A stretch of DNA of 44,080 nucleotides, taken from IMG/VR virus record IMGVR_UViG_2609460218_000014, positions 1 through 44,080 of that record; one strand, written 5' to 3'. This document shows positions 1,364 through 25,382 of this stretch, one piece after another (the first letter of the stretch is position 1; every line of letters starts with the position of its first letter). The notes below the pieces were generated by a model, which worked only from the letters and a program-made list of their open reading frames with translations, searched no databases and was not told where the DNA came from. A program made the translations under genes and the position numbers. The DNA is from a virus (taxonomy: Duplodnaviria > Heunggongvirae > Uroviricota > Caudoviricetes).

Positions 1364-1454
1364 CCTCAACATTANTTTTTCTCTCTCGAGNAAAAAAAAC
1401 TGGATAGCGTACTGGAACAGAGCTCTCGTATTCTTATTCATTACCACCTATTTT

Positions 1455-2630
1455 TTGGGTGGGATTACAAGGTATAAACATCTTATTGTTATTCTTATGA
1501 CAATAACGACAATCGTCTATCTCTGCAAACGGCCAAAACACTATCTCTCACTATTTAAAACATTTCTTTTTGGTAGTGTTGCCATATTAACTATTGCTGC
1601 ATTGCTGTCACTTCTTCAATCCCCTGATGCAGGTGCTAGCATGAAGGAAATTTTCAAAGCTATTATTGAGAATACTTTACTATGCACAATAGCAATACCG
1701 ATCATATTGAGAGACGAGAAAAGAGAAGATGTCGAAAAAATCGTTTTCTTCTCATTTATTAGTGCGTTGGGCTTACGCTGTTTTTCTGAATTGATTACCT
1801 ATTATAAGGACTATCAACAAGGGATAATGCCATTCGCAGATTATAGACACCGTAGCATTTCTGACTCGATGGTCTTTTTATTCCCTGCATTGTTAAATCT
1901 CTGGCTTATCAAATCAGCAAAATACCGCATTTCTTTTGTGGTTCTAAGCGTTATTTTTATTTTTCTGATATTAGGAACTTTATCCAGAGGGGCCTGGCTT
2001 TCCGTGTTAGTCATTGGATTAATATGGATTCTGATGTTTAAACAATGGAAGTTACTATTAGTAGGAGTAATGGTTGCCATCATTGCATTGTCGGTTATTT
2101 TCACACATAAGGAGATGACCGCAAAGCTAACGTATAAACTTCAACAAACTAATAGTTCTTATCGCTATGCAAATGGTACTCAAGGCAGCGCACTCGATCT
2201 AATATTAGAAAATCCTGTTATTGGTTATGGTTACGGTAACGTTGCATATAAAGATGTCTATAATAAACGTGTCATTGATTATCCAGAATGGACCTTTAGA
2301 CAATCAATAGGGCCACATAATTTTGCGCTATTCATCTGGTTTGGCACTGGTTTATTANGGCTGGTAAGTCTTATGATGCTATACTGTGCAATATTGAAAG
2401 AGTGTATAAAAAATGGCGTCAAGAATAAATATCGCTCACCATATAATGCATATTATATAATCTTACTATCTTTTATAGGTTATTTTGTTATCCGTGGAAA
2501 CGTAGAACAAATTGAACCAAATTTATTAGGCGTTTACGCCGGCTTATTATTAGCGATGAAAAACAAGTNAAAAAATNAAAAAAGGCTGCATAATGCGGCC
2601 TTTTTATTTATTCAAACCAATTATGAATAA
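1455..2630 (+). CDS. waaL: O-antigen ligase (polytopic membrane protein); true start probably downstream of the track start
   Basis: Hydrophobic multi-helix protein, low GC, downstream of waaC and convergent with the core glycosyltransferase operon. Track start is a TTG; N's near the 3' end. Confidence 0.65.
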   Translation: MGGITRYKHLIVILMTITTIVYLCKRPKHYLSLFKTFLFGSVAILTIAALLSLLQSPDAGASMKEIFKAIIENTLLCTIAIPIILRDEKREDVEKIVFFSFISALGLRCFSELITYYKDYQQGIMPFADYRHRSISDSMVFLFPALLNLWLIKSAKYRISFVVLSVIFIFLILGTLSRGAWLSVLVIGLIWILMFKQWKLLLVGVMVAIIALSVIFTHKEMTAKLTYKLQQTNSSYRYANGTQGSALDLILENPVIGYGYGNVAYKDVYNKRVIDYPEWTFRQSIGPHNFALFIWFGTGLLXLVSLMMLYCAILKECIKNGVKNKYRSPYNAYYIILLSFIGYFVIRGNVEQIEPNLLGVYAGLLLAMKNKXKNXKRLHNAAFLFIQTNYE

Positions 2631-3750
2631 CCTCTTCGAATCTTTGAGTTACGCCATCCCAACTGTAGTGATCAAACACAAAGTCCTGACCTTGCTTTGC
2701 AACTGCTGTTAATTCAGGATTCGCTAACGTTTTTAAAATATCGCTGCTTATGGAGTCTGCAGTCATAGGTTCTTTTAAATGGAATCCCGTAGTATTTTCT
2801 TTGACAAATTCCGTCATCCCCCCACGCGTACTCACTAAAACAGGCTTACCAGCACCCATAGCTTCAATTGCCACCATGCAAAATGGTTCCTGGAACTGGG
2901 AAGGAATGACGACTAAATCTGCCAGTGGGTAATAACAATGCATCTTTTCAGGCGGTATGCTTCCTAACATAATGCAACGATCCTTCAAACGTTTTGCAAT
3001 TTCCCTGACATTGCGTTGATATGCACCTTTGTCACTTTTACTCATTTCTGTATAATCACCAATCACAACTAATTTTAAATTTTTGTGAGCAGCGGCCAAT
3101 TTTTCGAATGATTGCATCAACAGCAATATGCCTTTGTCAGGGACGATACGCCCAGCATAAAAAATAATTTTCTCTTCAGGGGAGATATTAAGTTCGCTTC
3201 TAGTGATCGGCTGAAAATTAGATTGATAGGTTTCTAAATCAATTCCATTTGGTACAATCTCAATATCTGCATTTGCTAAATAAGATTGGTAATACTTTTT
3301 CAAGTATAAACTAGGCACTATCATTTTAACATTTTGCTCAAGCAATTTTGGTTCAAATGCATTATGCATATGTATAACCACTCTTGCCTGAGGAGCTCGC
3401 TTACGAATTTGAGTGTATAGCTTCATGCTATTATGAACTACAATAACACTTTCTTTCGTTATAGGAAAATCATGTGCAATATTCAATATTCTCTGTGAAT
3501 ATGGAAGAGGATCAAGTCTTGTCCATTTTTGAAATAACCGCTTATATATGCGACTGAATCCAACCCTATGAATACTACAATTATCATTAACAAAGGTGTA
3601 ATTTGAGTATCCTGGATTTTTGATACAAACAATACGATTTGGAAAATTGGTACGCTGAGCAACCTGATACATCCACGTTTCAACAGCAGCCGCTCCGCGA
3701 GGAGGAATTGAAAAAATAGGAGTAACCGTAAATATTATTTTATCAACCAT
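2608..3750 (-). CDS. LPS core glycosyltransferase, GT4-like family (WaaD/WaaK-like, distal gene of core operon)
   Basis: 380-aa ORF with the C-terminal motif pattern of retaining GT-B glycosyltransferases (...EPFCMVAIEAMGAGKPVLVSTRGG...); last gene of the waaQ operon, 3' end overlaps waaL convergently. Confidence 0.6.
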   Translation of the reverse strand: MVDKIIFTVTPIFSIPPRGAAAVETWMYQVAQRTNFPNRIVCIKNPGYSNYTFVNDNCSIHRVGFSRIYKRLFQKWTRLDPLPYSQRILNIAHDFPITKESVIVVHNSMKLYTQIRKRAPQARVVIHMHNAFEPKLLEQNVKMIVPSLYLKKYYQSYLANADIEIVPNGIDLETYQSNFQPITRSELNISPEEKIIFYAGRIVPDKGILLLMQSFEKLAAAHKNLKLVVIGDYTEMSKSDKGAYQRNVREIAKRLKDRCIMLGSIPPEKMHCYYPLADLVVIPSQFQEPFCMVAIEAMGAGKPVLVSTRGGMTEFVKENTTGFHLKEPMTADSISSDILKTLANPELTAVAKQGQDFVFDHYSWDGVTQRFEEVIHNWFE

Positions 3751-3758
3751 CTCGTATA

Positions 3759-4772
3759 TTAACCTTTCATAACATTATATTTAATTGCTGTAAAAACACC
3801 ATCGAGAAATTTTTTCTGGTAAAGCAAGTGTTTATATTTTTCTTTGTACTCATGTTTTTTAACAGCTTTTTTATAAGGTATATTTCTCCATGGTGATATA
3901 TTATAAATATTACGAAAATAATCTGCAGAGGCGTAGTTCGCCCAATCATGCCATGGCTTAGTTATACCAGTATAATGTATGAAGACAGTGTCATCATTAA
4001 TAAACCGGGTGTAATATTCACTATTTTTTTCTTCAAATTCTGACTTTATAGTATAAATACAATTATATTTTCTCGGTAATATTTTAGCATGATGTAGAAA
4101 CATTAAGTTTAAAATATCTTGATCCGGGTACTTTAATTTTTTTATAATTGACTCATCTGATAATAGATCAAAGAATTTTTCCGTTAGTCTTTGTTTTAAC
4201 CATTCCCGTAAATTAATATACATTACACCAGAGTTAAAATAGCTACCGTTAAAATCCTCATTACACAAACGCTCAGCGCTTTTACTTTGCATAGCATCTA
4301 CATCAATTACCACTGCCCCATATTCATCTTTAAACTCTAATGCTATTAACTCGTTCAATGAACCCTTACAGACGATATCAGCATCAAGATATAATAATGA
4401 ATCCAATCGCGCAGAAAAATAATCAAATGAAAGCAAACGATAATAAATAGATACTGGCCAGATATTTGATTGAGGTAGCGCCTTCAATGGCTCAGAATCA
4501 ATATGATATAATTTAATTACTGTTTGATACTTCGTTGCTAATTGTGATAATAATTCAATATACTCTTTGTCTAAGTAATCAGCGATTATGTGAAAGGTAA
4601 ATTTGTTTTGTTTATTATTTTCAAGAATTGAAGCAATTGAAATCGCAGCCCCAACCTGGTAGTTCTCATCAATACCCCATGAGACATTAAACGTTTCCCG
4701 TTCATCAAGTTTAACGGGGCGCTTGTCCAGTTCAATTATATCTTTAAATTGAGTAAGATGTTTAAAATCCAA
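3759..4772 (-). CDS. LPS core alpha-1,2/1,3-hexosyltransferase, GT8 family (WaaJ-like)
   Basis: 337 aa; GT8 hallmarks (LDADI..., HYTG..KPW) and paralogous to ORF 5531..6538; position after waaY matches R3-type order. Confidence 0.6.
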   Translation of the reverse strand: MDFKHLTQFKDIIELDKRPVKLDERETFNVSWGIDENYQVGAAISIASILENNKQNKFTFHIIADYLDKEYIELLSQLATKYQTVIKLYHIDSEPLKALPQSNIWPVSIYYRLLSFDYFSARLDSLLYLDADIVCKGSLNELIALEFKDEYGAVVIDVDAMQSKSAERLCNEDFNGSYFNSGVMYINLREWLKQRLTEKFFDLLSDESIIKKLKYPDQDILNLMFLHHAKILPRKYNCIYTIKSEFEEKNSEYYTRFINDDTVFIHYTGITKPWHDWANYASADYFRNIYNISPWRNIPYKKAVKKHEYKEKYKHLLYQKKFLDGVFTAIKYNVMKG

Positions 4773-4796
4773 TTTAATTACCCTTCATCATAATCA

Positions 4797-5505
4797 TTAT
4801 TTGCTCTTCAATCCTAGTTTGACTTTTACATCCCTGATTACTTTTTTAATTTTCTTTTTGAATATAAGATATGTATAGCCAAAGTCTTTCAATTCATTTT
4901 TTATATTATAGTGCCGTTCAAGATCAATGCGATCTTTTGCTTTTAAAACAGCGGTTGTTTTTTTACCTGAAAGGTCAATTAGTCTTAAACCTTTTTCGGA
5001 TACTATAAAATTTCCTTTATGAGGATCGCCAGACACCATTCCATGCTGATGCAACTCTTTTATCGATTCTGATAATTGATCCTTCAGATCTTCAGAAATT
5101 TCCAAATACTCATTTAACCCGACACCTTCAATATACTCAATGAGCATAATATAATAATGAGCGAAATTTAATGTTTTACGTTCAGCTAGCAAAAAATAGT
5201 CATTAATTGATTGGATGCCTTCACCACGTACCCGATCGGTTTGATAAATTAAATTTTCATAATAATCNTTTTTTTATGCAAGATTTTAAGAAACGTTCGG
5301 TCATTTTATGCTTTGGCGCATAAACTTTAAGTACAAGAGGTCCACGAGCAGTGTCAATAAGAATGACTTTAGTATCATCAATAGAACGAAAAACTTTTAA
5401 TGTTTTAACCCTGCAAGTTAAAAAGTCATTTAGAACTTGCTCATAAAAGGGATCATTATCTTTTATGAAAACTTTCAACCCATTTATCGTTTTATTATAT
5501 ATCAT
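4797..5505 (-). CDS. waaY: LPS core heptose II kinase WaaY; apparent frameshift between two track ORFs (4797..5192 and 5257..5505)
   Basis: Both fragments read as one small kinase-like protein; the break coincides with an N in a poly-T run near 5268, so probably a sequencing artefact. Confidence 0.65.
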
Positions 5506-5530
5506 AATGAATTATTTTAACCTTAAATCT

Positions 5531-6538
5531 TTAGAAGCATTTTTCTTTATAATACTTTAAATAATTAAAAATGCCTGCCATATAATGCTTTTGTTTAAAT
5601 TTATGTTTTGCACAATACCGATACTGATTGCTATTTACAGGTTTAAGTAAATCTTCTTTACTCCACGGAGAAGCTGCTTTGGCGATCAAAAAACTACGTG
5701 ACACCGGATAGTCAGCCCACTCATGCCAGGGTTTTGTAGGTCCCACATAGTGTATAAACACGGTGTCATCATTGACTGGATTATCAACTTTGTCTTTTAA
5801 TTCATAGTTAATACTATATCGGGTATTATATCTCTCCGAAATAAACTTCACTTTACCATTCAATAATACATTCAGTACATCTTGATCAAGGTGGGTGATT
5901 TTACTTACCCAATCTGGGTCACGCAACATTTCAATAGCTTTTGACGAAATGTTATTTAGATTCCACTCATCAATATTTATCAGTAAAAAACCAGCATTGA
6001 AATATCCAGAAGCTAACTGTGGTGTAGTTAATACCGAGGCTCGATTTTGCCACCATTCAACATCTCTTTCAGCTACAACTGCGGCAATTTCATTAGTAGA
6101 AAATTGATAATCTAAGAGTTCTTTAATACTACCCTTGCAAGCAATATCTGCATCAAGATATAGTATTTTTTCATGTTTATGATAGAAATAATCTGCAATT
6201 ATAAATCGAAAATATGTTGCGTAAGTCCAGTTTTTCGTGCTTGGTAATGACTTCAGCTTATCACAATTGATAACATAAATATTAATTCTTGAATTATATT
6301 GTTTTGCTAAATCAGAAAAATATAATTTGTCTTTATCACTGATATAATCTGTGAAAACATGAAATTCACAAGAGATTTCTCTATTGTTTAATAGAATAGA
6401 TGCGATGGCTACACCACATCCAAAAAGAAAATTTCTGTCAATACCAAATGCTATATCAAGAGTATTTTTAGATCTTATATTTTGATAATGAAAATTATAC
6501 TCAAAAAGGATGATGTCACTATCATTGAGTTGAGACAT
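5531..6538 (-). CDS. LPS core hexosyltransferase, GT8 family (WaaI/WaaO-like)
   Basis: 335 aa; GT8 motifs (YLDADIACKGS, HYVGPTKPW); immediately downstream of waaP. The waaS/waaB genes of K-12 are absent. Confidence 0.6.
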   Translation of the reverse strand: MSQLNDSDIILFEYNFHYQNIRSKNTLDIAFGIDRNFLFGCGVAIASILLNNREISCEFHVFTDYISDKDKLYFSDLAKQYNSRINIYVINCDKLKSLPSTKNWTYATYFRFIIADYFYHKHEKILYLDADIACKGSIKELLDYQFSTNEIAAVVAERDVEWWQNRASVLTTPQLASGYFNAGFLLINIDEWNLNNISSKAIEMLRDPDWVSKITHLDQDVLNVLLNGKVKFISERYNTRYSINYELKDKVDNPVNDDTVFIHYVGPTKPWHEWADYPVSRSFLIAKAASPWSKEDLLKPVNSNQYRYCAKHKFKQKHYMAGIFNYLKYYKEKCF

Positions 6539-6580
6539 ATTTATTCTGTATCCAAAATTTTGGCAAAAATAAGTTACGGG

Positions 6581-7387
6581 TTACAACGATTTTCGAATCG
6601 TTCTTTCCCTGATTTTTGTGGCTTTTGCTTCTGCTTGCAACAGCAGTCCTTGTTCCTGCTTGAGAATGTCTTTAAGCGGAGCGGCAAAATACACCTTCAT
6701 AAACCGCCAGATATCCCGCTGAGTCAGGCCAATATTCATCGAAGAAAAATAAAGTCCAATAAGATCTTTATCGCGCCAACGACGTGGAACTCGCGTGCGA
6801 AGCTGCGCCCGGTGCAGGTCAATTACCGAAATTTTTAACTCCTCTTCCTTACCGGAAAAAGGCAAGTGCAGCAGGAAATGACAGATATAACAGTCACGGT
6901 GATTAATGCCCGCAGCATGCATATCGCGCACCATCGTCGCGACACGCTTAATAAGCATACGCTTTACGCGAACATCTGGTGGGTTGGTCGCCCAGTCAGC
7001 ACAGTAATCTTCCAGACTTATGGTTGGTGTCAGATCTTCGGTAATAATAAACGAGGTTCTGGTCAGCGGATTCATGCCTTTTTCGCCGAATGCCACCCCA
7101 TACATAGTATCAACGCCGACATCCCGCAGTCGATGAATCGCATTCCATTCGCGGTCTGCGCCTAATACTGGCATCCGCAATGAGAGTAAATTTTTGATTA
7201 TCTCTTTCAGGGTCGTGCCGCGATGCCATTTGAGAAAATAGCTTTTTCCCGCCATTTCAAAGCGCAGAGTACGGCGAGTTTCCAGTTCACGAAATATCTC
7301 ACCCTGCAAGGTTTTAACTTCCTCAAAAGGATCTTTACCGCGCCATAACGTGGCAAACGGCTCTTTAAGTTCAACCATCCAGACCAC
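6581..7387 (-). CDS. waaP: LPS core heptose I kinase
   Basis: 268-aa ORF ...[21 protein letters not shown]... matches WaaP as I recall it; sits between waaG and the GT8 gene. Confidence 0.85.
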
Positions 7388-13988: not shown

Positions 13989-14153
13989 CTCCTTTGTGGT
14001 GCTCGCATCCTGTCATAGTCGTTCCGTTAAATCGACGGCCAGTTTTCAATCCTGGAAAGAGCCTCGCAAAGTGAATCTCAGGTGAAGGCACGACAACAAA
14101 AGTATTGTGATAAAATCGCCAACTTCTGGTGTCACCCAACAGGAAAAATCATC

Positions 14154-15374
14154 ATGAGCCTGGCCGGTAAAAAAATCGTTCTCGGCGTTAGCGGCGGTAT
14201 TGCTGCCTATAAAACCCCTGAACTGGTGCGTCGTTTGCGCGATCGCGGGGCCGACGTCCGCGTAGCCATGACCGAAGCGGCAAAAGCCTTTATCACCCCA
14301 CTTAGCTTGCAGGCGGTTTCTGGTTATCCCGTTTCCGACAGTCTGCTGGACCCGGCAGCCGAAGCCGCTATGGGCCATATTGAGCTGGGTAAATGGCTGA
14401 TTTAGTGATTCTCGCCCCTGCCACGGCAGATTTGATTGCCCGTGTTGCTGCCGGAATGGCGAATGACCTGGTATCGACGATTTGTCTGGCTACACCTGCG
14501 CCTGTAGCCGTGCTCCCCGCCATGAACCAGCAGATGTACCGTGCCGCTGCCACGCAGCATAATTTAGAGGTGCTTGCTTCCCGTGGTTTGCTGATCTGGG
14601 GGCCAGACAGTGGCAGTCAGGCTTGTGGTGATATCGGCCCAGGGCGAATGCTCGATCCATTAACCATTGTGGATATGGCGGTAGCGCATTTTTCGCCCGT
14701 CAACGACCTGAAACATCTGAACATTATGATTACCGCCGGCCCGACGCGTGAACCGCTCGATCCGGTGCGTTATATCTCTAATCACAGCTCCGGCAAGATG
14801 GGTTTTGCTATCGCCGCCGCCGCTGCCCGTCGTGGCGCGAACGTCACGCTGGTATCAGGTCCGGTTTCACTACCGACGCCACCGTTTGTTAAACGTGTTG
14901 ATGTGATGACCGCGCTGGAAATGGAAGCCGCCGTGAATGCTTCTGTACAGCAGCAAAATANTTTTTATCGGTTGCGCCGCCGTGGCGGATTATCGCGCAG
15001 CTACCGTGGCCCCAGAAAAAATCAAAAAGCAGGCCACGCAGGGTGATGAATTAACAATAAAAATGGTTAAAAACCCCGATATCGTCGCAGGCGTTGCCGC
15101 ACTAAAAGACCATCGACCCTACGTCGTTGGATTTGCCGCCGAAACAAATAATGTGGAAGAATACGCCCGGCAAAAACGTATCCGTAAAAACCTTGATCTG
15201 ATCTGCGCGAACGATGTTTCCCAGCCAACTCAAGGATTTAACAGCGACAACAACGCATTACACCTTTTCTGGCAGGACGGAGATAAAGTCTTACCGCTTG
15301 AGCGCAAAGAGCTCCTTGGCCAATTATTACTCGACGAGATCGTGACCCGTTATGATGAAAAAAATCGACGTTAA
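14154..15374 (+). CDS. coaBC: Bifunctional phosphopantothenoylcysteine decarboxylase/synthetase; broken into three track ORFs by apparent single-base frameshifts
   Basis: Track ORFs 14082..14405, 14393..15046 and 14937..15374 together read as contiguous CoaBC; restoring one G in a GGG run near 14395 and correcting a T-run with an N near 14961 gives one ORF. The gene is essential, so these are sequence errors. Confidence 0.85.
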
Positions 15375-18100: not shown

Positions 18101-18964
18101 ATGATCCGCAGTATGACCGCCTACGCCCGGCGTGAAATCAAGGGTGAATGGGGGAGCGCAACCTGGGAAATGCGCTCGGTAAACCAGCGTTATCTGGAAA
18201 CTTACTTTCGTCTGCCGGAGCAGTTCCGTAGCCTTGAACCTGTCGTTCGCGAGCGTATTCGTTCTCGCCTGACGCGCGGTAAAGTGGAATGTANCCTGCG
18301 CTATGAGCCAGATGTTAGCGCACAAGGTGAGCTGATCCTCAATGAAAAACTGGCTAAACAGCTGGTAACTGCCGCGAACTGGGTAAAAATGCAGAGTGAC
18401 GAAGGGGAAATCAACCCGGTTGATATTCTGCGCTGGCCGGGCGTGATGGCAGNCCAGGAGCAGGATCTCGACGCCATTGCCGCTGAAATTCTCGCGGCGC
18501 TGGATGGTACGCTGGACGACTTTATTGTCGCGCGCGAAACCGAAGGTCAGGCACTGAAAGCATTGATCGAGCAGCGTCTGGAAGGCGTCACCGCCGAAGT
18601 GGTCAAAGTCCGCGCCCATATGCCGGAAATCCTGCAATGGCAGCGTGAGCGTCTGGTCGCGAAGCTGGAAGATGCTCAGGTTCAGTTGGAAAACAACCGT
18701 CTGGAGCAGGAGTTGGTTCTGCTGGCACAACGAATTGACGTTGCCGAAGAACTGGACCGCCTGGAAGCGCATGTCAAAGAGACCTACAACATTCTGAAGA
18801 AAAAAGAAGCCGTTGGTCGTCGTCTGGACTTTATGATGCAGGAATTCAACCGCGAGTCGAACACTCTTGCGTCGAAATCTATCAATGCCGAAGTGACAAA
18901 CTCCGCCATCGAGCTGAAAGTGTTGATTGAGCAGATGCGCGAGCAGATTCAGAACATTGAGTAG
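18101..18964 (+). CDS. yicC: YicC-family stress-induced protein
   Basis: 287 aa, MIRSMTAYARREIKGEWGSATWEMRSVNQRYLE...; conserved neighbour of rph. Confidence 0.9.
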   Translation: MIRSMTAYARREIKGEWGSATWEMRSVNQRYLETYFRLPEQFRSLEPVVRERIRSRLTRGKVECXLRYEPDVSAQGELILNEKLAKQLVTAANWVKMQSDEGEINPVDILRWPGVMAXQEQDLDAIAAEILAALDGTLDDFIVARETEGQALKALIEQRLEGVTAEVVKVRAHMPEILQWQRERLVAKLEDAQVQLENNRLEQELVLLAQRIDVAEELDRLEAHVKETYNILKKKEAVGRRLDFMMQEFNRESNTLASKSINAEVTNSAIELKVLIEQMREQIQNIE

Positions 18965-19004
18965 CGTATCACCTCATATCATTCAGAATCACCAACCAGA
19001 AGAA

Positions 19005-19028
19005 GCCCGCTAATCACGGGCTTTTTTC
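19005..19028 (+). terminator. Intrinsic terminator of yicC
   Basis: Hairpin gcccg-ctaatca-cgggc followed by tttttt. Confidence 0.7.
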
Positions 19029-19140
19029 ATATCACAAAGTTGCAGTTAGCATCATAAAAGCGCATATTTCTCGTGTACCCAATAGTGTCCCTATGAGGCA
19101 GAGGCATTAAGTAGATAGGGTACGCAACCAATGAGGTGAT

Positions 19141-20396
19141 ATGGGCAAGCTAACAGACATTCAGATCAAGGCCTGGATAAAGGCCGGAACAAGGTTCGAG
19201 GGTAAATCGGACGGTAACGGTTTATATTTGCGCTATCGCACTACTGACACGTCCCCATCATGGCGTTTCCGCTACCGCTTCGCTGGCAAGCCTCGTGTTA
19301 TGACAATTGGCGCGTATGGCGTTATCTCACTGGCTAAAGCCGGGAGATCACCCGAGAGCTGGCTGCTCGTGTTTCTCTGGGGTATGACGTTGCCGGTGAG
19401 AAGCAGGAGCGAAAAGCCGCATTAAAAGCCCAGTTGGAAGCCGACCAGCATGACAAAACAGTGTCCGAAGTAGCTGAAGACTATTTTAAGAAGAAAGTAC
19501 TGGGTACATGGAAACACCCCGACATCCTCCGCCGTCGTCTGGCGAAAGACATTAATCCTCGCATAGGTCAGAAAAAGGTTAAGGACGTCAAACCCCGAGA
19601 TATTGATGCCTTGCTTCAGGCCATCTTAAAACGTGGTGCGCCATCTATTGCTAATGACGTCTTGCGCTGGATACGTCGTATCTTTGACCATGCGATCAAG
19701 CTGGGGATGATTGAGGTTAACCCCGCTGCTGCCTTTGATATGAGTGACGCGGGCGGTAAGGAAACATCTCGTGAACGTTGGTTAACCAGGCAGGAACTGG
19801 TTCAATTCTTTGAAGCCATGCGAATGGCAAAAGGCTTTAGTCGTGAGAACGAGTTAACTCTAAAGCTGCTGCTGGTCACTTGCGTGAGAAAGATGGAACT
19901 GTGCGCCGCACGCTGGAGCGAGTTCGATTTAGCCAACGGCATTTGGTACTTACCGGGCGAACGCACAAAGACAGGCGACGGGATTGATATTCCACTGCCA
20001 AAACAGGCTATCGAATGGTTGGAGGAGCTGCGCCTTCTCTCTTGTAACAGCAAATGGGTATTACCTGCGCGAAAACAACAGCATCGCATGATCCCCCATA
20101 TTCAGGAAAGCACCCTACCCGTTGCGCTGGCGAAGGTTAAGCATGAGATGCCTGGTGTACCGAACTTCACTATTCACGACCTTAGGCGCACCGCACGCAC
20201 CCATCTCGAAGCGTTAGGTGTGAATCCCATTGTTGCTGAGCGTTGCCTTAATCACCGCATCAAAGGCGTCGAGGGCATCTACAACCGTCACCAATATTTA
20301 AACGAACGGCGGGAAGCGCTGGCCATGCTGGGCAACCTGATGGAAGCCTTAGAGCGTGGCGAGGAATACAACGTTCAACCATTGAGGAAAGCATGA
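19141..20396 (+). CDS. Tyrosine integrase, P4 family (arm-binding N-domain plus catalytic domain); frameshifted in this sequence
   Basis: Track ORFs 19141..19425 and 19434..20396; N-terminus KLTDIQIKAW...GNGLYLRYRTT...WRFRYRFAGK and C-terminal HDLRRTARTHL...YNRHQYLNERR are typical. One missing C in a CCC run near 19337 would restore ISLAKAREITRELAARVSLGYDVAGEKQERKAA and a single ~418-aa ORF. Confidence 0.85.
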
Positions 20397-20433
20397 TGAT
20401 TCAGTGGATAGGTTTTCAATATTGTTTTTTTGC

Positions 20434-20546
20434 CTGTCCCACGCGTCCCATCTGTCCCGTTTTGTAAAGATAAAATAAATTCAATCAGTTACGAACACTA
20501 ACATGGGACAAAACACGGGACAGGACGGGACAAATTTTTCTGTCCC
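20434..20546. repeat. Array of about 7 GGGACA/TGTCCC hexamer repeats in both orientations (putative protein-binding sites)
   Basis: Three TGTCCC-type copies at about 10-bp spacing (20434-20459), an AT-rich spacer, then three GGGACA copies at 10-12 bp spacing and an inverted pair gggacaaatttttctgtccc (20527..20546); lies between int and orf179. Confidence 0.6.
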
Positions 20547-20586
20547 GTCCTCAAATTGAATAAACAATAACCGATAAGGGCAATAA

Positions 20587-21126
20587 ATGAATGATAACAA
20601 CAGTGTCCCAACGATTACGCTTCATGACCCTAAGCCGTGGTATGAGGTAGACCCATTGGTAATAAATGCTATGGAACTGACCGGCGCATCATATGAAGAA
20701 CTTAACGCCGGGGTATCTCTGTGCGTTGACGTTTGGGACGCCGATAGTCCAAATACTTTCCTTATAAATTGCAGGATCAAATGGGTTAAATACACATATG
20801 ACCTCACAGGTTTCGCCATTGCTCGTTATTTTTGGACTAACCCTGAGAAAGACACCCTGCTAAGTGAGGTAGTTACTACTGAATATCAGCGTAGGAGAGA
20901 ATCTCTTGAGCTGGAGATAAAAAAGGAGCGGGAAAAGAACGCCGGTTACGGGAAAACAAACCCGAAAAAAGATGAGATTATTGAAGAGTTTAAATTGTGG
21001 AAAGAAAAATACCCACAAGGCAGTTGTAAACAATTTCATCAACAGCTAACACGGCAAACAAAAAGAGGGGAAAAAGTCCCTTCAGTTAGAAGCATACAAG
21101 ACTGGACGAAAATACTGCGCAATTAA
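20587..21126 (+). CDS. Hypothetical protein (179 aa), island-encoded, no family recognised
   Basis: ORF with a good SD (aaggg 8 nt upstream of ATG); acidic N-half, lysine-rich charged C-half (EIKKEREKNAGYGKTNPKKDEIIEEFKLWKEKYPQ); located between int and alpA. Confidence 0.55.
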   Translation: MNDNNSVPTITLHDPKPWYEVDPLVINAMELTGASYEELNAGVSLCVDVWDADSPNTFLINCRIKWVKYTYDLTGFAIARYFWTNPEKDTLLSEVVTTEYQRRRESLELEIKKEREKNAGYGKTNPKKDEIIEEFKLWKEKYPQGSCKQFHQQLTRQTKRGEKVPSVRSIQDWTKILRN

Positions 21127-21197
21127 AAACAACTGCGCAATTAGCTCGGTATCCTCTCAGTACGTCGCAAATAGACGCGTTCACAGAGGAATTAAAT

Positions 21198-21392
21198 ATG
21201 AAAAATGATTTTCCCTTATCTGGCTACGTTCGCCCTTCTCGGGTGAGCGAATTCCTAGATATAAGCCCGGCCACAATGTGGCGCTGGGCAGCAAAGAGTG
21301 AGTTTCCAAAAAGCCGTAAGCTGAGTTCCCGCGTAACAGTTTTTGATGCCGCAGAAATCAGACGTTGGCTGGCGGCGAAAAGTGCAGATTAA
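21198..21392 (+). CDS. alpA: AlpA-family transcriptional regulator / excisionase-like winged-helix protein
   Basis: 64 aa; VRPSRVSEFLDISPATMWRWAAKSEFPKSRKLSSRVTVFDAAEIRRWL matches the AlpA signature; SD gagga upstream. Confidence 0.85.
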   Translation: MKNDFPLSGYVRPSRVSEFLDISPATMWRWAAKSEFPKSRKLSSRVTVFDAAEIRRWLAAKSAD

Positions 21393-21407
21393 TGGAGGTG
21401 GTGAGTT

Positions 21408-21884
21408 ATGAGCTTAATCGCTGAGATTCAAACGGCAGCATCNGGTAAGTGGCCTGCCGTGTTACGTGCTTTAGGCGTCGACGTGCCTGAAAAGCAGGCG
21501 CACATCCCTTGTCCCGTATGTGGCGGCAAAGACCGGTTTCACTTTAAACACGACGATGTAGGTTCGAGTTACTGCCGGGGGTGTAATAAGTGGCGCGACG
21601 GATTACAGCTAGCTCGAGATTGTGGGGCCTCTGTTTCTCAGATCGCCAATGCCGCTGGAATAAACACAACGCGCCACGCGCCGCTAGGCAGGCGAAAGGT
21701 CAGCTTGCCACCACACACAACTGCGTTACTGGCTGGGAAGCAGAAATTAAGGGAGCAGGGTGCAGAATGGATAAAAGTGTGGCTGGACTGTCAGGAGGCA
21801 GCAATTTTATGGCACGAATATGAAAAAAACGGCAGCCCCTTTGAGGAGAGCCGCCGTCTTTATGGACTACATAGACAACTTTAA
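21408..21884 (+). CDS. Primase-type zinc-ribbon protein (Cys-X2-Cys-X17-Cys-X2-Cys), no catalytic primase domain evident
   Basis: 158 aa; CPVCGGKDRFHFKHDDVGSSYCRGC as in primase-helicase zinc-binding domains; strong SD ggaggtg; start overlaps alpA stop. Confidence 0.7.
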   Translation: MSLIAEIQTAAXGKWPAVLRALGVDVPEKQAHIPCPVCGGKDRFHFKHDDVGSSYCRGCNKWRDGLQLARDCGASVSQIANAAGINTTRHAPLGRRKVSLPPHTTALLAGKQKLREQGAEWIKVWLDCQEAAILWHEYEKNGSPFEESRRLYGLHRQL

Positions 21885-21892
21885 TTCTTTGC

Positions 21893-21916
21893 GCTTCCCG
21901 GTTGCCCCCGGGAAGC
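21893..21916 (+). other. Perfect 9-bp stem hairpin between the zinc-ribbon gene and the helicase gene
   Basis: gcttcccgg-ttgccc-ccgggaagc with no following T-run; in the 56-bp gap between the two genes. Confidence 0.4.
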
Positions 21917-21940
21917 AAAACAACAAGGGACATAATCACC

Positions 21941-23377
21941 ATGTCAGAGAATACTGTAACTCACCTACCTCTCAAGTCAACCATGAAAGAACCGGTGTCC
22001 GGTGCGCCAGCACAGGCGGCTAAGTATGATTCTATGCCGCTGGCAAAGATGCAACCCGGCGAACGCATCGCCGCGTTTGTTGCAAAGACTGGCCGTTATT
22101 CACTTCATCGGGCAAGTGATACCTTGTACCGTTTTGATGGTGCTATCTGGCGGGCAATCAGCGATTCAGCTGTGAAAAGTGATTTAGCAGACTTCTACAT
22201 GACCCGCGGCTTTCAACCCGGTGCCAGTGTCTTTGAAAGCGACGCGCGAGCGCTGAAGATATATTCATCGACCAAACAATCTCCAGAGATGGCGGAACCA
22301 AAAGCCGGGGTAATCGCCTTTGCCAACGGCGTTTACTCAATCATAGACGGTTCATTTTCCAGCCATTGTGCGGAAAACTGGTTGCGCTCACATAACGGCA
22401 TAGACTATGCAGCAGCACTCCCCGGAGAGACACTGAGCGGCAGTGCCCCACATTTTAGCAAGTGGCTAGCGCACAATGCCGGTAATGATGAAGCGAAGGC
22501 CAAGCGGATACTGGCGGCTCTGTATATGGTTCTGACTCATCGCTACGAATGGCAGCTATACGTTGAGGTAACTGGCAAAGGTGGTAGCGGTAAGAGTGTA
22601 TTTATGTCTCTGTGCAGATTGCTATCAGGGGAAGACGGCTCAAAGGCTACAACCTTACACGCGCTGCGCGACTCAATGGCTCTAGAAACATTGATTGATG
22701 CCAGGCTCATTACCATGAGTGATCAGCCCGCATATAGCGGCGATTGTGCGAATTTAAAAGCCATTACCGGCGGTGACTCCATTTTCATCAATCCCAAGTA
22801 CAAGAAGGGGTTCGATGCGAAAATTAACGCCGTTGTAGTCGTGGCTAACAACGAACCTGCTGTATTTACTGAGCATAACGGGGGCATATCCCGCCGCCGG
22901 GTACTGTTTAAGTTTGGTGAACCGGTAGAAAGACCTGACCCTGAGTTTATGGCGAAGATAAAAACTGAATTGCCGGTAATCGTGCGTCACTTGCTCAAGG
23001 AATTGGATGATACTACCGCAAAAAGTCTGCTCATCCAGCAACGAGACTCAGAGGAATCGTTTGACGCTAAAGCGGAGGCCAGTAGCATTTACTCCTTCGT
23101 TAAACACCTGGACCCACTGCCAGCGCCTACAGGTATGCGCATGGGTGGCAAGGCATCATCCTCAAACGCGGAGCGGCCCAGAGAGTTCCTTTACCATGCG
23201 TATTTGGCATTTATGCAATACAACGGGTTCCAGAATCCACTTTCGGTTCTGAAATTCAGGCAAGCTGTTATTGCGATAATGAAAGAGCGCGGGCACGAGT
23301 TCGCGGATAAAAGGGACTCCGTTGGTCTCCGCTACAACGTGGAGTTGGCCGAATCAGCCAGCGAATGGCTTCCGTAA
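21941..23377 (+). CDS. SF3 (D5/P4-type) replicative helicase / NTPase, the C-terminal domain family of phage-plasmid primases
   Basis: Track ORF 21902..23377; likely start MSENTVTHLPL; Walker A VTGKGGSGKSVF, Walker B-like LITMSD, sensor-like VVVVANNEP; directly upstream of the iteron region. Confidence 0.8.
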   Translation: MSENTVTHLPLKSTMKEPVSGAPAQAAKYDSMPLAKMQPGERIAAFVAKTGRYSLHRASDTLYRFDGAIWRAISDSAVKSDLADFYMTRGFQPGASVFESDARALKIYSSTKQSPEMAEPKAGVIAFANGVYSIIDGSFSSHCAENWLRSHNGIDYAAALPGETLSGSAPHFSKWLAHNAGNDEAKAKRILAALYMVLTHRYEWQLYVEVTGKGGSGKSVFMSLCRLLSGEDGSKATTLHALRDSMALETLIDARLITMSDQPAYSGDCANLKAITGGDSIFINPKYKKGFDAKINAVVVVANNEPAVFTEHNGGISRRRVLFKFGEPVERPDPEFMAKIKTELPVIVRHLLKELDDTTAKSLLIQQRDSEESFDAKAEASSIYSFVKHLDPLPAPTGMRMGGKASSSNAERPREFLYHAYLAFMQYNGFQNPLSVLKFRQAVIAIMKERGHEFADKRDSVGLRYNVELAESASEWLP

Positions 23378-23397
23378 CATACTTTCAACATTAAAAG

Positions 23398-23425
23398 CTG
23401 GGGCGCATGATTGCGCCCTTTTTTA
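23398..23425 (+). terminator. Intrinsic terminator after the helicase gene
   Basis: gggcgca-tgat-tgcgccc followed by tttttt. Confidence 0.7.
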
Positions 23426-23466
23426 ATTCCATCGATAGATCAGAATATTTAGNTTTTTTTATGAAA

Positions 23467-23690
23467 GTCCTACATGTCTTACACCAAATGAAATTAAATT
23501 ATATATAACAATAAATTAGATAATGTAGGACCTTAAAAATATCCTACACAGGTCCTACATAACTCCTGCACTCGAAGCCTCGTAGTGTAGGGTTTAAGGA
23601 AGCCCCTCGCCAGTCCTACACAAGTCCTGCACTTTCTAACAAATTGTTTTAAATGATTTTTTTAATGGAGAATGTAGGAGTGTAGGACAT
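23467..23690. repeat. Iteron cluster (about 8 copies of GTCCTACA / TGTAGGAC in both orientations) next to an AT-rich stretch: putative island replication origin
   Basis: Copies at about 23467, 23523, 23543, 23552, 23585, 23613, 23672, 23681; preceded by an AT-rich segment (23440-23520); no ORF of 60 aa or more on either strand between 23378 and 24087. Confidence 0.6.
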
Positions 23691-24195
23691 GAAGGACTTT
23701 CCAGGAAAAACTATATTTTGAATATTTGAGCCTAAAAAATGGACACCCTTGCGCTACGCGCCGCTAGGCAGGGAAAGTGGTTTTCATAACATGTATTTAA
23801 CAATCGCATTCCCATTCGGAACCAGCGGGCCGGAATGATCCTGATACAGGCGTTCAGCATGGAGTGAGAATCAACGTTTTTTGATGCCCTACTGACCCCA
23901 GATTAATCTTTGGTCGGTAGCGGGAAGCCTTCGTTCTGGTCAGGGTAATGTCAGGGTGATGCTTACGTTTTATGACTATTTTAGTTAGCAATAGTTAGCA
24001 ACCTACTCAAATCAAAACTTCTCAAAGTTAATTCCTAAAACGAAAAAGCCCCCACATTTCTGTAGGGGCCGTTTCGTCATTCTGCGCTTGATGGTCGGAA
24101 GGATGGCCGACAAATATATACTATCTCTTTATGTACTCACGAACCAGTACGATAGTACAATAAGCCGTCAATTCTTCAAAATGATGGTGATAGCG

Positions 24196-24588
24196 ATGAA
24201 CGAAGTAGATTCAATTCTGGCCGAGCAGAAAAGAGCCGCAGAACAACGCCGCTTGGCTAATGAGAAGAAGCGCCATCCATCCGGCCTGTACGCCGTTGGT
24301 GATGGGTGGTATGTGAAGCAAATCGAAGAGCTTCACTCCCCGCTTGGTCTTAGCAAGGTGGTTCTGGTAAGCCCTGATGATGTTTGTGTGAGATATCAGC
24401 GCCAATATGGCAAAGCACTCACCACTGACAAATTGAAGGAATGGAGCAGGGACGGGAACTTCCCTTTGCCGCGCTCTATTAATGGGGTTATCGGTTGGGA
24501 ATCGAATGTTGTGACCAATGGCCTGAATGAACTGAGCAAAGCAGCCGGTCGAGGTTATACCAGTATTACACGAGGGTTCGCACGATGA
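24196..24588 (+). CDS. Hypothetical protein (track ORF 24088..24588, 166 aa; likely start at MNEVD giving about 130 aa), first gene of cargo cassette
   Basis: Protein-like composition; SD-like ggtgat upstream of the internal ATG; stop overlaps the next ORF start (ATGA). No family recognised. Confidence 0.5.
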   Translation: MNEVDSILAEQKRAAEQRRLANEKKRHPSGLYAVGDGWYVKQIEELHSPLGLSKVVLVSPDDVCVRYQRQYGKALTTDKLKEWSRDGNFPLPRSINGVIGWESNVVTNGLNELSKAAGRGYTSITRGFAR

Positions 24589-24782
24589 GCAAAGAATCTG
24601 TAATGGCGGCATTGAGAAAGGCGCGTGAAGGCAATATCTTTGGCGGTACTGGTCAGGCCGAATTTAACAAAAATTTTTACGCTGGCCGCGTCACCAAAAC
24701 AGATGGTGTTAGTAAGACCGACAGTAACGAGCCGATGAACCAAAAGGCATTTAATGCCCGGTTCTATGCGGGGAAATCATGA
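24585..24782 (+). CDS. Hypothetical small protein (65 aa) with internal duplicated N-x-x-F-Y-A-G-[RK] motif
   Basis: ATGA overlap with the upstream ORF and SD gaggg; NKNFYAGRV and NARFYAGKS repeat within the protein. Confidence 0.5.
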   Translation: MSKESVMAALRKAREGNIFGGTGQAEFNKNFYAGRVTKTDGVSKTDSNEPMNQKAFNARFYAGKS

Positions 24783-24841
24783 CTGAGGCATATGCGCTCT
24801 GTGTGATGCTGTACTGCTACCTGATGCTTATCTGCCCGTAA
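24779..24841 (+). CDS. Possible 20-aa hydrophobic Cys-rich peptide (MTEAYALCVMLYCYLMLICP)
   Basis: Start overlaps the ORF65 stop (ATGA), SD-like gggga upstream, followed by a hairpin terminator. Too short for any compositional statistics. Confidence 0.3.
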   Translation: MTEAYALCVMLYCYLMLICP

Positions 24842-24860
24842 CCTTCCCTCACTGCCAAGC

Positions 24861-24884
24861 GCCGCCGAAAGGCGGTTTCTTTTG
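24861..24884 (+). terminator. Putative short intrinsic terminator/attenuator after the coupled ORFs
   Basis: ccgcc-gaaa-ggcgg (GNRA-type loop) followed by tttcttttg. Confidence 0.4.
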
Positions 24885-24901
24885 ACCTGATGGAGTCTGT
24901 C

Positions 24902-25183
24902 ATGCTGAATGTGAACCGCTTGCCCAACAGCACCCGCCTACAGATTGCCGCCGCTATTGCTGAAGAGGTTTACGCGCTGGATCTGGATGATGAGGCGTTA
25001 ATTCATGAGCTGCGTCGTTATGGATTCAGCCAGGCTTATGCGGAAGCAATGACTTTCAGATTTATGACGCCAGCCTTTGAAATCGCAGATCCACGGCGCG
25101 AACGTAAAACAAAAATGCCAGCGCCCACCTCTCANCCCGAATGGGTTTTTGTTGATAATGTTTTAATGAAGATCACGGCGTGA
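24902..25183 (+). CDS. Hypothetical protein (track ORF 24890..25183, 97 aa; likely start at MLNVNRL)
   Basis: SD ggag 9 nt upstream of the second ATG; contains one N; last ORF before the island's right end. No family recognised. Confidence 0.5.
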   Translation: MLNVNRLPNSTRLQIAAAIAEEVYALDLDDEALIHELRRYGFSQAYAEAMTFRFMTPAFEIADPRRERKTKMPAPTSXPEWVFVDNVLMKITA

Positions 25184-25382
25184 CTTACACAAAATTACAA
25201 TTGGTCATAAATCACACAATAAAAATTGTAATCCCTGTAAATCCATGTACCCATACGTGTACACAAGCAAAACAAGAAAAACAAAAATCATTTAAATATC
25301 AATACATATAACCCACAATTCAATATTCAGATTCAATATTGAGTAACTCGTAACACTAATTCTTACTTTTCAGCCTTCACAA

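What the first reader, a model, noticed from the sequence alone, without database searches (positions are those of the whole stretch)
23440..23700. Iteron cluster immediately downstream of the helicase gene: putative island ori
About eight copies of GTCCTACA/TGTAGGAC in both orientations within 230 bp, next to an AT-rich stretch and just after the helicase terminator. This is the classic arrangement of satellite and plasmid replication origins bound by their cognate initiator/helicase, and supports the island being replication-competent.
Basis: partly seen in the sequence, partly recalled or inferred. Interest (0 to 1): 0.5.

Follow-up and report, generated by a model that had tools for sequence, protein, structure and literature searches.

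The report
Replication origin of a mini-satellite island
Twelve copies of a short repeat just after the helicase gene of a 6.4-kb E. coli chromosomal island are almost certainly the island's replication origin, of a type already known from phage P4 and phage-inducible chromosomal islands (PICIs), so the find is solid but ordinary.

Summary
There are 12 copies (5 exact, 7 degenerate) of GTCCTACA in both orientations at 23467-23697. They sit just after the helicase terminator and bracket two AT-rich spacers, one of which is the least stable duplex in the island.

The origin reading is strongly supported by comparison. Sister islands at the same yicC/dinD site keep the number, spacing and orientation of the repeats. 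All copies change in concert to another word: TCCRTCA or CTACTACA.

Only one island protein segment is never identical between repeat classes: the C-terminal about 100 residues of the helicase. That segment is homologous to the phage P4 alpha origin-binding winged-helix domain (PDB 1KA8). The whole protein models best onto the SaPI5 primase-helicase (7OLA). The switch from TCCTACA to TCCRTCA tracks with a few residues in the wing hairpin.

The same layout follows the helicase gene in wider relatives, including the reference PICI EcCIRM13514, which uses P4-type TGTTCACC repeats. Origins of this design were described and functionally tested for Gram-negative PICIs in 2018.

This is therefore a new member of a known kind, with an unlisted repeat specificity. 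No replication experiment exists for it.

The parts
18946..25347 (+). The whole island, about 6.4 kb, inserted at the 3' end of yicC. Gene order: int, orf179, alpA, zinc-ribbon gene, helicase, origin, conserved non-coding stretch, three small ORFs. attL is CAGATTCAGAACATTGAGTAG at about 18946-18966. attR is CAGATTCAATATTGAGTAA at about 25328-25347.
   Evidence: Flanking genes and Pfam hits. att halves read from the sequence. The reference PICI EcCIRM13514 is listed at yicC-dinD with att GAGCAGATTCAA. Annotated sister islands.
21408..21884 (+). Gene for a 158-aa protein carrying only the primase-helicase zinc-ribbon domain, with no catalytic primase domain.
   Evidence: Pfam Zn_Ribbon_Prim at aa 32-65. 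PHROG matches cover only the N-terminal ends of primases. Alleles can be 100% identical between islands with different repeat classes.
21941..23377 (+). Gene for a 478-aa superfamily-3 (SF3) helicase/initiator of the P4 alpha family (DUF5906 / D5_N / Pox_D5). It has no primase domain.
   Evidence: Pfam, PHROGs, TIGR01613 at E 1e-23 but below the curated cutoff. AlphaFold model with pLDDT 87. Best fold match is the SaPI5 primase-helicase 7OLA, TM 0.64-0.70.
23078..23374 (+). Codons 380-478 of the helicase: the C-terminal winged-helix origin-binding domain. Helix 2 is aa 417-428 with the conserved LYHAYL motif. Helix 3 is aa 436-449. The wing hairpin is aa 456-469.
   Evidence: phmmer match to PDB 1KA8 (P4 alpha origin-binding domain), E 9e-14 over aa 380-478. 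Secondary structure from the model. The conserved helix-2 tyrosines and the role of the wing are described in PMC2777425.
23303..23347 (+). Codons 455-469, the wing hairpin. These are the only residues that consistently separate TCCTACA-class helicases from TCCRTCA-class ones: D455E, R457K, D458G/N, L462V, E467Y/T.
   Evidence: Alignments. L014 shares this wing and the TCCTACA repeats although its helicase differs elsewhere (88% identity).
23400..23429 (+). Intrinsic terminator of the helicase operon.
   Evidence: Terminator scan. A hairpin plus T run is present at the same place in all sister islands.
23467..23483 (+). Left repeat pair: two direct copies, starts 9 bp apart (GTCCTACA, GTCTTACA).
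23484..23523 (.). AT-rich spacer 1 (87.5% AT), the candidate site where the duplex first unwinds. It is the least stable 40-mer of the island and contains a one-mismatch IHF-like site.
23524..23531 (-). Single inverted repeat copy (TGTAGGAC) facing the left pair across spacer 1.
23541..23570 (+). Central triplet of direct copies at 11-bp spacing (ATCCTACA, GTCCTACA, CTCCTGCA).
   Evidence: (family D1).
23585..23592 (-). Degenerate inverted copy (ACCCTACA on the minus strand) in the more GC-rich middle spacer.
   Evidence: (D8).
23613..23631 (+). Right direct pair at 11-bp spacing (GTCCTACA, GTCCTGCA).
23632..23672 (.). AT-rich spacer 2 (80% AT), the fourth least stable 40-mer of the island.
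23673..23697 (-). Right inverted group of three copies at 8-9 bp spacing (CTCCTACA, GTCCTACA, GTCCTTCA on the minus strand), facing the right pair across spacer 2.
   Evidence: Inverted-repeat pair I2 (31 nt, 81% complementary) links this end to the left end.

Best explanation
The cluster at 23467-23697 is the vegetative replication origin of a small PICI-like satellite island.

Proposed mechanism.
1. The island's own SF3 helicase (21941-23377) acts as initiator. Its C-terminal winged-helix domain recognises the 8-bp repeats (consensus A-R-G-T-C-C-T-A-C-A-Y).
2. The repeats are arranged as two units. In each unit, repeat groups of opposite orientation flank an AT-rich spacer of about 40 bp.
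3. Helicase subunits bound on both sides of a spacer assemble into hexamers, melt the AT-rich DNA (most likely 23484-23523) and load themselves. No separate loader is needed, as shown for SaPI Rep proteins.
4. The island has no catalytic primase, so priming and synthesis must come from the host or a helper phage.

Shown here: the repeats, their architecture, their concerted turnover, their exclusive co-variation with the helicase C-terminus, and the homology of that domain to a known origin-binding domain.

Inferred: binding, melting, self-loading and actual replication.
For: 1. Position and design. The cluster lies directly 3' of the initiator gene and its terminator. Repeat groups of opposite orientation flank AT-rich spacers. 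This is the organisation described for Gram-negative PICI origins and shown to work for EcCICFT073 (PMC6092414). [quoted passage not shown]

2. Architecture kept, sequence replaced. Eleven sister islands at the yicC site keep the pattern: two direct, AT spacer, one inverted, three direct, spacer, two direct, AT spacer, two or three inverted. Every copy changes in concert to TCCRTCA or CTACTACA.

3. Exclusion test. Across the window and these 11 sister islands, int, orf179, alpA, the zinc-ribbon protein, helicase residues before the last 100, and the three downstream ORFs all occur as 99.4-100% identical alleles with different repeat classes. Only the last 100 residues of the helicase (at most 87% identical between classes) and the last 30 (at most 77%) never do.

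4. Fine mapping. Class A and B helicases are 99-100% identical up to about residue 379. The consistent differences lie in the wing hairpin, 455-467. L014 has a diverged helicase but the class A wing and class A repeats.

5. Homology. Residues 380-478 match the P4 alpha origin-binding domain 1KA8 at E 9e-14. The whole model is closest to the SaPI5 primase-helicase.

6. Generality. In 13 of 14 loci encoding relatives, the strongest repeated 7-mer cluster of the locus lies right after the helicase gene, with the same layout. Two pairs have similar helicase cores but dissimilar C-terminal domains and different repeats: L018/L019 (core 78%, C-terminal domain 31%) and L020/L022 (83%, 55%).

7. Uniqueness. 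No second cluster of this word exists in the window.
Against: No experiment exists for this element or for any island with this repeat.

The wing codons lie only about 120-400 bp from the repeats. Their co-inheritance could partly reflect physical linkage within one recombination block rather than functional coupling.

In phage P4, the cluster placed right after alpha is crr, a cis-required region, while initiation maps to a second cluster 4.5 kb away. Position alone therefore does not prove that initiation occurs here.

The island carries a second, different repeat cluster (GGGACA, 20435-20547) whose role is unknown.

The island lacks a primase catalytic domain, so autonomous replication may depend on host or helper functions.

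The raw count statistic is not extreme under a crude local shuffle.
Confidence: 0.85

Rival explanations
1. The cluster is a crr-like, cis-acting helper region bound by the helicase. Initiation would occur elsewhere in the island, for example at the GGGACA cluster next to int, as in phage P4 where ori and crr are separate.
For: In P4 the repeat cluster directly after the alpha terminator is crr, and ori lies 4.5 kb away on the far side of the operon. This island also has a second repeat cluster with two opposed groups around a 44-bp AT-rich spacer at 20435-20547, upstream of the operon.
Against: The two clusters use different words, whereas P4 ori and crr share one. No other TCCTACA cluster exists. 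The GGGACA cluster does not co-vary with the helicase. PICI relatives L017, L018 and L022 have a single cluster. For EcCICFT073 the segment 3' of rep sufficed as origin (PMC6092414). The least stable DNA of the island lies inside the TCCTACA cluster.
Confidence: 0.07
2. The repeats are operator sites for transcriptional control or copy-number control only. They would be autoregulatory or would control the downstream small ORFs, with no origin function.
For: Winged-helix proteins often act as repressors. Repeats in plasmids also serve copy control. The cluster lies upstream of three co-oriented ORFs.
Against: The cluster follows a terminator. No sigma-70-like promoter was found in 23300-24300. 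About 500 bp of conserved non-coding DNA separate it from the most likely start of the next ORF (about 24196; a longer TTG ORF starts at 24088). The binding domain is attached to a hexameric helicase homologous to known initiators. The AT-rich spacers framed by opposed repeats are typical of origins.
Confidence: 0.04
3. The repeats are binding sites for a different machine: integrase arm sites, a packaging (pac/cos) site for a helper terminase, a partition site, or a host OmpR-type regulator that binds direct repeats 11 bp apart.
For: Triple TCCTACA at 11-bp spacing is common in unrelated metagenome contigs. One example, L036, sits between an integrase gene and a tRNA gene, as arm sites do.
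Against: Integrases 99.5% identical occur with different repeat classes. The cluster is 4.5 kb from attL and 1.6 kb from attR. Sister islands in the same host species, with identical remaining genes, carry different words, which argues against a host factor or a shared helper terminase. There are no partition genes. No lambda cos is present in the island.
Confidence: 0.03
4. The repeats are a chance or decaying tandem duplication with no function.
For: One of 20 crude local shuffles reached the same 7-mer count somewhere in 44 kb.
Against: All 5 exact 8-mers fall within 222 bp. Both orientations are present with helical-turn spacing. The architecture is conserved while all copies change in concert in relatives.
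Confidence: 0.01

Closest known systems
Replication origins of Gram-negative phage-inducible chromosomal islands (EcCICFT073; EcCIRM13514 at yicC-dinD), Fillol-Salom et al. 2018 (PMC6092414)
   Same: The origin lies immediately 3' of the initiator gene, with sets of repeats flanking AT-rich DNA. Gene order is unidirectional: int, alpA, initiator. The integration site is the same as for EcCIRM13514, whose integrase is 69% identical. The repeat layout matches that of L022.
   Different: The repeat word is GTCCTACA rather than TGTTCACC. The helicase is only 35% identical to that of EcCIRM13514 and lacks the N-terminal extension (478 versus 607 aa). The island is 6.4 kb, against 10-20 kb, and has no recognisable capsid, packaging, SSB, ProQ or PerC genes.
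Phage P4 alpha protein with its type 1 repeats in ori and crr (X51522; origin-binding domain PDB 1KA8)
   Same: The C-terminal origin-binding winged helix is homologous (E 9e-14). A repeat cluster lies directly after the helicase terminator. Repeat pairs with starts 9 bp apart and opposed copies across a spacer of about 35-40 bp are shared.
   Different: P4 needs two separate clusters of one word (ori and crr), whereas here the word forms a single cluster. P4 alpha carries zinc-ribbon and toprim primase domains in the same chain; here the zinc ribbon is a separate protein and no toprim domain is present. The repeat word differs.
SaPI Rep / PriRep self-loading helicases and SaPI origins (PMC9371898)
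   Same: An SF3 helicase with a C-terminal winged-helix domain that reads the repeats. There are 6-12 repeats just downstream of rep, with an AT-rich centre and opposed repeats on each side. SaPI5 PriRep is the best structural match of the model.
   Different: Sequence identity is only about 15%. The host is Gram-negative. There are two AT-rich spacers rather than one central region. The overall island organisation differs: unidirectional and alpA-controlled, not Stl-controlled.
PICMIs, minimalist satellites of Vibrionaceae (PMC10803314)
   Same: Size is about 6 kb. The core is int, alpA and a DUF5906-type 'primase', plus a few small unknown genes and long non-coding stretches. There are no capsid-remodelling genes.
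   Different: PICMIs are defined by integration next to fis in Vibrionaceae. This island is at yicC in E. coli. No helper is known, and PICMI origins were not described in the text read.
Iteron plasmids (Rep_3-type initiators, e.g. F, R6K, pPS10; author's own knowledge)
   Same: Short repeats spaced about one helical turn apart, next to an AT-rich unwinding region, read by a winged-helix initiator.
   Different: The initiator here is itself the helicase. There is no Rep_3 domain, no DnaA box, and repeats occur in both orientations.

Membership tests
Gram-negative PICI replicon/origin | Origin located immediately 3' of the replication initiator gene | tested here: met
   The cluster starts 90 bp after the helicase stop codon and 38 bp after the terminator. 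The same placement holds in 13 of 14 related loci.
Gram-negative PICI replicon/origin | Sets of repeats flanking an AT-rich region | tested here: met
   Two such units. Unit 1 is 23467-23483, an AT spacer at 23484-23523, then 23524-23531. Unit 2 is 23613-23631, an AT spacer at 23632-23672, then 23673-23697.
Gram-negative PICI replicon/origin | Unidirectional int, alpA, pri/rep gene order at a specific attachment site | tested here: met
   Pfam hits and gene order. yicC-dinD is a listed PICI attachment site.
Gram-negative PICI replicon/origin | The rep-ori segment drives replication, and deleting ori impairs it | not testable with these tools
   Shown only for EcCICFT073 in PMC6092414.
Gram-negative PICI (the island as a whole) | Helper-phage induction and packaging; size about 10-20 kb, usually with late, packaging or interference genes | tested here: not met
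   The island is 6.4 kb. No Pfam, PHROG or NCBIfam hit was found for the four unknown ORFs. No lambda cos is present. No match was found in phage, plasmid or viral-contig collections. Induction itself is not testable here.
P4 alpha-type initiator and origin | C-terminal origin-binding winged-helix domain homologous to 1KA8 | tested here: met
   phmmer E 9e-14 over aa 380-478. The helix-2 LYHAYL motif is conserved.
P4 alpha-type initiator and origin | Type 1 repeat TGTTCACC | tested here: not met
   The repeat here is GTCCTACA. TGTTCACC is used by L017, L018, L022 and P4.
P4 alpha-type initiator and origin | Two separate cis regions (ori and crr) carrying the same repeat | tested here: not met
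   There is a single cluster of this word in 44 kb. The other cluster in the island uses GGGACA.
P4 alpha-type initiator and origin | Primase (zinc ribbon plus toprim) fused to the helicase | tested here: not met
   The zinc ribbon is on a separate 158-aa protein. No toprim or archaeo-eukaryotic primase domain was found in the island.
SaPI Rep/ori system | SF3 self-loading helicase with a C-terminal winged helix | tested here: met
   The best Foldseek hit is 7OLA, with TMq 0.64, TMt 0.70 and 456 aligned columns. The phmmer match to 7OLA has E 2e-5.
SaPI Rep/ori system | [quoted passage not shown] | tested here: met
   There are 12 copies. Spacer 2 has 2 copies on one side and 3 on the other, opposed. 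Spacer 1 has 2 and 1, followed by a triplet. Criterion taken from PMC9371898.
Iteron plasmid origin (Rep_3 type) | Rep_3-family initiator and DnaA box(es) beside the repeats | tested here: not met
   No Rep_3 hit. No DnaA box with up to one mismatch in 23378-23760.

The most novel reading that the evidence does not exclude
The island family may be a natural swap series for origin specificity.

A handful of wing-hairpin substitutions (D455E, R457K, D458G/N, L462V, E467Y/T) may retarget an otherwise identical helicase from TCCTACA to TCCRTCA. That would give a readable recognition code for P4-type origin-binding domains.

The islands also keep a second origin-like element (GGGACA, 20435-20547). 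This word is the repeat found at the origin position in sister islands that carry a DUF927 helicase. One island type might therefore be replicated in trans by the helicase of another, or might use a two-site scheme like P4 ori and crr.
Probability: 0.15. Interest if true: 0.5.

Novelty: new member of a known kind. Interest (0 to 1): 0.3.

Why it matters
The result marks the 6.4-kb yicC island as a probable self-replicating satellite rather than a dead remnant. It also pins down the island's cis-acting origin and the protein domain that reads it.

The sister islands offer a ready-made specificity series. Near-identical helicases differ only in the wing and carry different repeats. This could be used to work out how P4/PICI-type origin-binding domains read DNA, or to build mutually compatible small replicons.

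It does not change the current picture of satellite replication.

Tried and rejected
- The genome-contig scan with a helicase alignment returned only four distant relatives (23-24% identity) in non-enterobacterial bacteria (Firmicutes, Actinobacteria, Armatimonadota). It was useless for the comparison.
- The viral-contig scan found no relative.
- Searches of the helicase-plus-origin segment (21941-23760) against phage and plasmid collections gave nothing, or an 89-bp helicase fragment. The separate search of 23700-24100 against phages, done for the conserved non-coding stretch, also found nothing.
Of 120 loci, only L050 carries this helicase (100% identical, probably the source contig). The rest are unrelated 11-bp-period repeats, for example integrase arm sites in L036. 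It gave no independent test.
- Rfam found only sub-threshold hits.
- A P2/P4-like cos reading of GCTAGGCAGGGAAAG at 23760 was considered and dropped: 6 of 19 positions mismatch by eye, and there was no phage match. Lambda cosN is absent from the island.
- A 28-nt direct repeat (21671 and 23751) bracketing the helicase-origin module was checked as a possible recombination site. It is present in only some sister islands.
- A local-shuffle test of 7-mer counts was not clean: one of 20 shuffles reached 7.
- DnaA boxes are absent. IHF-like sites are only one-mismatch matches.

Full report
**Setting.** The window is an Escherichia coli chromosome segment: coaBC, dut, slmA, pyrE, rph, yicC, then an island, then dinD, yicG, ligB, gmk, rpoZ, spoT. 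The island is about 6.4 kb and sits at the 3' end of yicC. Its att half-sites are at about 18946-18966 and 25328-25347.

Its genes all point rightward:
- a tyrosine integrase;
- a 179-aa unknown protein;
- AlpA;
- a 158-aa protein with only a primase-type zinc ribbon;
- a 478-aa SF3 helicase (DUF5906 / D5_N / Pox_D5);
- about 800 bp of non-coding DNA, counted to the most likely start of the next ORF at about 24196 (a longer TTG ORF starts at 24088);
- three small unknown ORFs.

yicC-dinD is a listed attachment site of Gram-negative phage-inducible chromosomal islands, with EcCIRM13514 as the reference example (supplement of PMC6092414).

All five exact GTCCTACA copies in the 44 kb lie within 23467-23688, against 0.65 expected for the whole window. 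With degenerate copies there are twelve: seven on the plus strand and five on the minus strand.

Reading left to right, the order is:
1. the helicase stop codon at 23377;
2. an intrinsic terminator at 23400-23429;
3. two direct copies with starts 9 bp apart;
4. a 40-bp spacer of 87.5% AT;
5. one inverted copy;
6. three direct copies 11 bp apart;
7. a more GC-rich spacer with one weak inverted copy;
8. two direct copies 11 bp apart;
9. a 41-bp spacer of 80% AT;
10. three inverted copies.

The first spacer is the least stable 40-mer of the island, at -37 kcal/mol against a mean of -54 +/- 4. It falls in the top 0.06% of the window for AT content. A crude local-shuffle test of 7-mer counts was not clean: one of 20 shuffles reached the observed count. 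I therefore rest the case on clustering and comparison, not on the count.

**Comparative test.** Only one of 5,426 complete E. coli genomes has this origin sequence at high identity. About ten carry sister islands at the same site. I fetched eight of these and three more from other assemblies.

In all of them the region after the helicase terminator has repeats at the same positions, spacings and orientations. The word differs:
- class A, TCCTACA: the window, L001, L014;
- class B, TCC(A/G)TCA: L002 to L006;
- class C, CTACTACA(CC): L007, L008, L015, L016.

Concerted replacement of ten or more sites within a fixed scaffold is what a set of binding sites for one sequence-specific protein should show.

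**Which protein reads the repeats.** I compared every island protein across the three classes. Int, orf179, AlpA, the zinc-ribbon protein, the helicase apart from its last 100 residues, and the three downstream ORFs each occur as 99.4-100% identical alleles in islands with different repeat classes. Only the last 100 residues of the helicase (at most 87% identical between classes) and the last 30 (at most 77%) never do.

Class A and B helicases are 99-100% identical up to about residue 379. Their consistent differences lie at residues 455-467. L014 has a helicase 88% identical elsewhere, yet it carries the class A residues there and class A repeats.

Linkage is a caveat. These codons lie only about 120-400 bp from the repeats, so part of the association could be co-inheritance within one recombination block.

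**What that segment is.** Residues 380-478 match the crystal structure of the phage P4 alpha origin-binding domain (1KA8) at E 9e-14. An AlphaFold model (pLDDT 87) shows a winged helix:
- helix 2 at 417-428, with the conserved LYHAYL tyrosines noted for this domain family (PMC2777425);
- helix 3 at 436-449;
- a beta-hairpin wing at 456-469.

The class A to B switch changes two central bases of the repeat and maps to the wing. Class C changes more of the word and differs in helix 3 as well. In the related RFX domain, helix 3 and the wing make the DNA contacts (PMC2777425).

The whole model is closest to the SaPI5 primase-helicase, with TMq 0.64 and TMt 0.70. That protein belongs to the self-loading helicases whose C-terminal winged helix binds repeats placed just downstream of rep (PMC9371898).

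**Generality.** Relatives of the helicase at 35-60% identity from Vibrio, Serratia, Enterobacter, Erwinia and the reference PICI EcCIRM13514 were fetched with their flanks. In 13 of 14 loci examined, the strongest repeated 7-mer cluster of the whole locus lies directly after the helicase gene. The layout is the same: two direct, AT spacer, one inverted, three direct, and so on.

EcCIRM13514, the Vibrio locus and the Serratia locus use TGTTCAC(C), the type 1 repeat of P4. Two pairs with similar helicase cores but dissimilar C-terminal domains have different repeats: L018/L019 (core 78%, C-terminal domain 31%) and L020/L022 (83%, 55%).

**Comparison with what is known.** Fillol-Salom et al. 2018 described this origin organisation for Gram-negative PICIs. 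They showed that the EcCICFT073 rep-ori segment drives plasmid replication and that deleting ori impairs it (PMC6092414). The present cluster is therefore a member of a known kind.

It departs from known systems in several ways.
- From P4: there is one cluster of the word rather than the ori plus crr pair, and there is no primase domain.
- From reference PICIs: the island is small (6.4 kb), lacks recognisable late or packaging genes, and uses a different repeat word.
- In gene content it resembles the minimalist PICMI satellites of Vibrio (PMC10803314), but it sits at another site in another host.

**Rivals considered.**
- A crr-like accessory role, with initiation elsewhere, cannot be excluded without experiments. 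It is disfavoured because no second cluster of the word exists and because PICI relatives have a single cluster.
- An operator-only role is disfavoured. The cluster follows a terminator, and no promoter-like site was found nearby.
- Integrase arm sites, packaging sites and host-regulator sites are disfavoured by the exclusion test and by position.
- Chance is contradicted by the comparative data.

**Quality of the window.** The window carries 25 N characters and a 1-base deletion in int at about 19340, relative to L001 and to the otherwise identical metagenome contig L050. The split integrase is therefore most likely an artefact of this copy, not a sign of decay.

**Verdict.** This is a new member of a known kind and of modest interest. 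The most useful by-product is the natural series of near-identical helicases that differ in the wing and in their cognate repeats.

Noticed in passing
window 20435-20547 (between int and orf179): A second origin-like repeat cluster. Three TGTCCC copies with starts 9 bp apart are followed by a 44-bp AT-rich spacer, three GGGACA copies 10-12 bp apart in the opposite orientation, and one more inverted copy. It is conserved in all sister islands whatever their helicase type or repeat class, so it does not track the helicase. Its role is unknown; it could be an AlpA or other operator, or an orphan origin.
   Followed up: partly
L009:6750-6865, L024:5920-6025, L025:5835-5945 (sister islands with toprim plus DUF927 helicase at the same yicC site): In these islands the cluster right after the helicase terminator uses the same GGGACA word and layout as the int-proximal cluster. 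In L009 it is a near-identical inverted copy. Two like clusters therefore flank the operon, the same topology as P4 ori and crr. This suggests GGGACA is the cognate repeat of the DUF927 module.
   Followed up: partly
window 21671-21698 and 23751-23777: A 28-nt direct repeat, GCGC(C/T)ACGCGCCGCTAGGCAGG(C)GAAAG. One copy lies inside the zinc-ribbon gene and the other at the right edge of the origin, so together they bracket the helicase-origin module. Both copies are present only in some sister islands. It may be a recombination joint for module exchange.
   Followed up: partly
window 23750-24195: About 450 bp of non-coding DNA that is nearly invariant in all sister islands, including, from about 23885 onward, those with a different replication module. 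It contains a good minus-strand intrinsic terminator (stem 24070-24047, T run to about 24037). There is no Rfam hit, no phage match and no promoter-like site. It could be a packaging site or a small RNA.
   Followed up: partly
window 21408-23377: The replication module has no catalytic primase. The primase zinc ribbon is a separate 158-aa protein whose middle part is mosaic between islands. The helicase corresponds only to the D5_N, SF3 and winged-helix part of relatives of about 780 aa that carry toprim.
   Followed up: partly
window about 19340; N at 21443, 23453, 25135 and 22 other positions: A 1-base deletion splits the integrase into two ORFs. The otherwise identical metagenome contig L050 and strain 30EVA2 have an intact gene. 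coaBC (14082-15374) is likewise split. The window appears to be a degraded copy, so frameshifts here should not be read as pseudogenes.
   Followed up: yes
L026-L145 (metagenome contigs), e.g. L036:2926-3045: Three TCCTACA copies at 11-bp spacing occur in many unrelated contigs. In L036 and L038 they lie between a tyrosine integrase gene and a tRNA gene, as integrase arm sites would. Several rumen contigs share another recurring context. The same word has been adopted by unrelated DNA-binding systems.
   Followed up: partly
window about 1000-7000: A stretch of markedly low GC (0.30-0.40, against about 0.50-0.55 elsewhere) with negative GC skew. It probably marks another horizontally acquired region and was not examined.
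   Followed up: no
window 24196-25183: Three small ORFs (about 130, 65 and 93 aa) at the right end of the island have no Pfam, PHROG or NCBIfam match. They are 95-100% conserved in all sister islands, including those with a different replication module. They are candidates for helper-interaction or packaging functions.
   Followed up: partly
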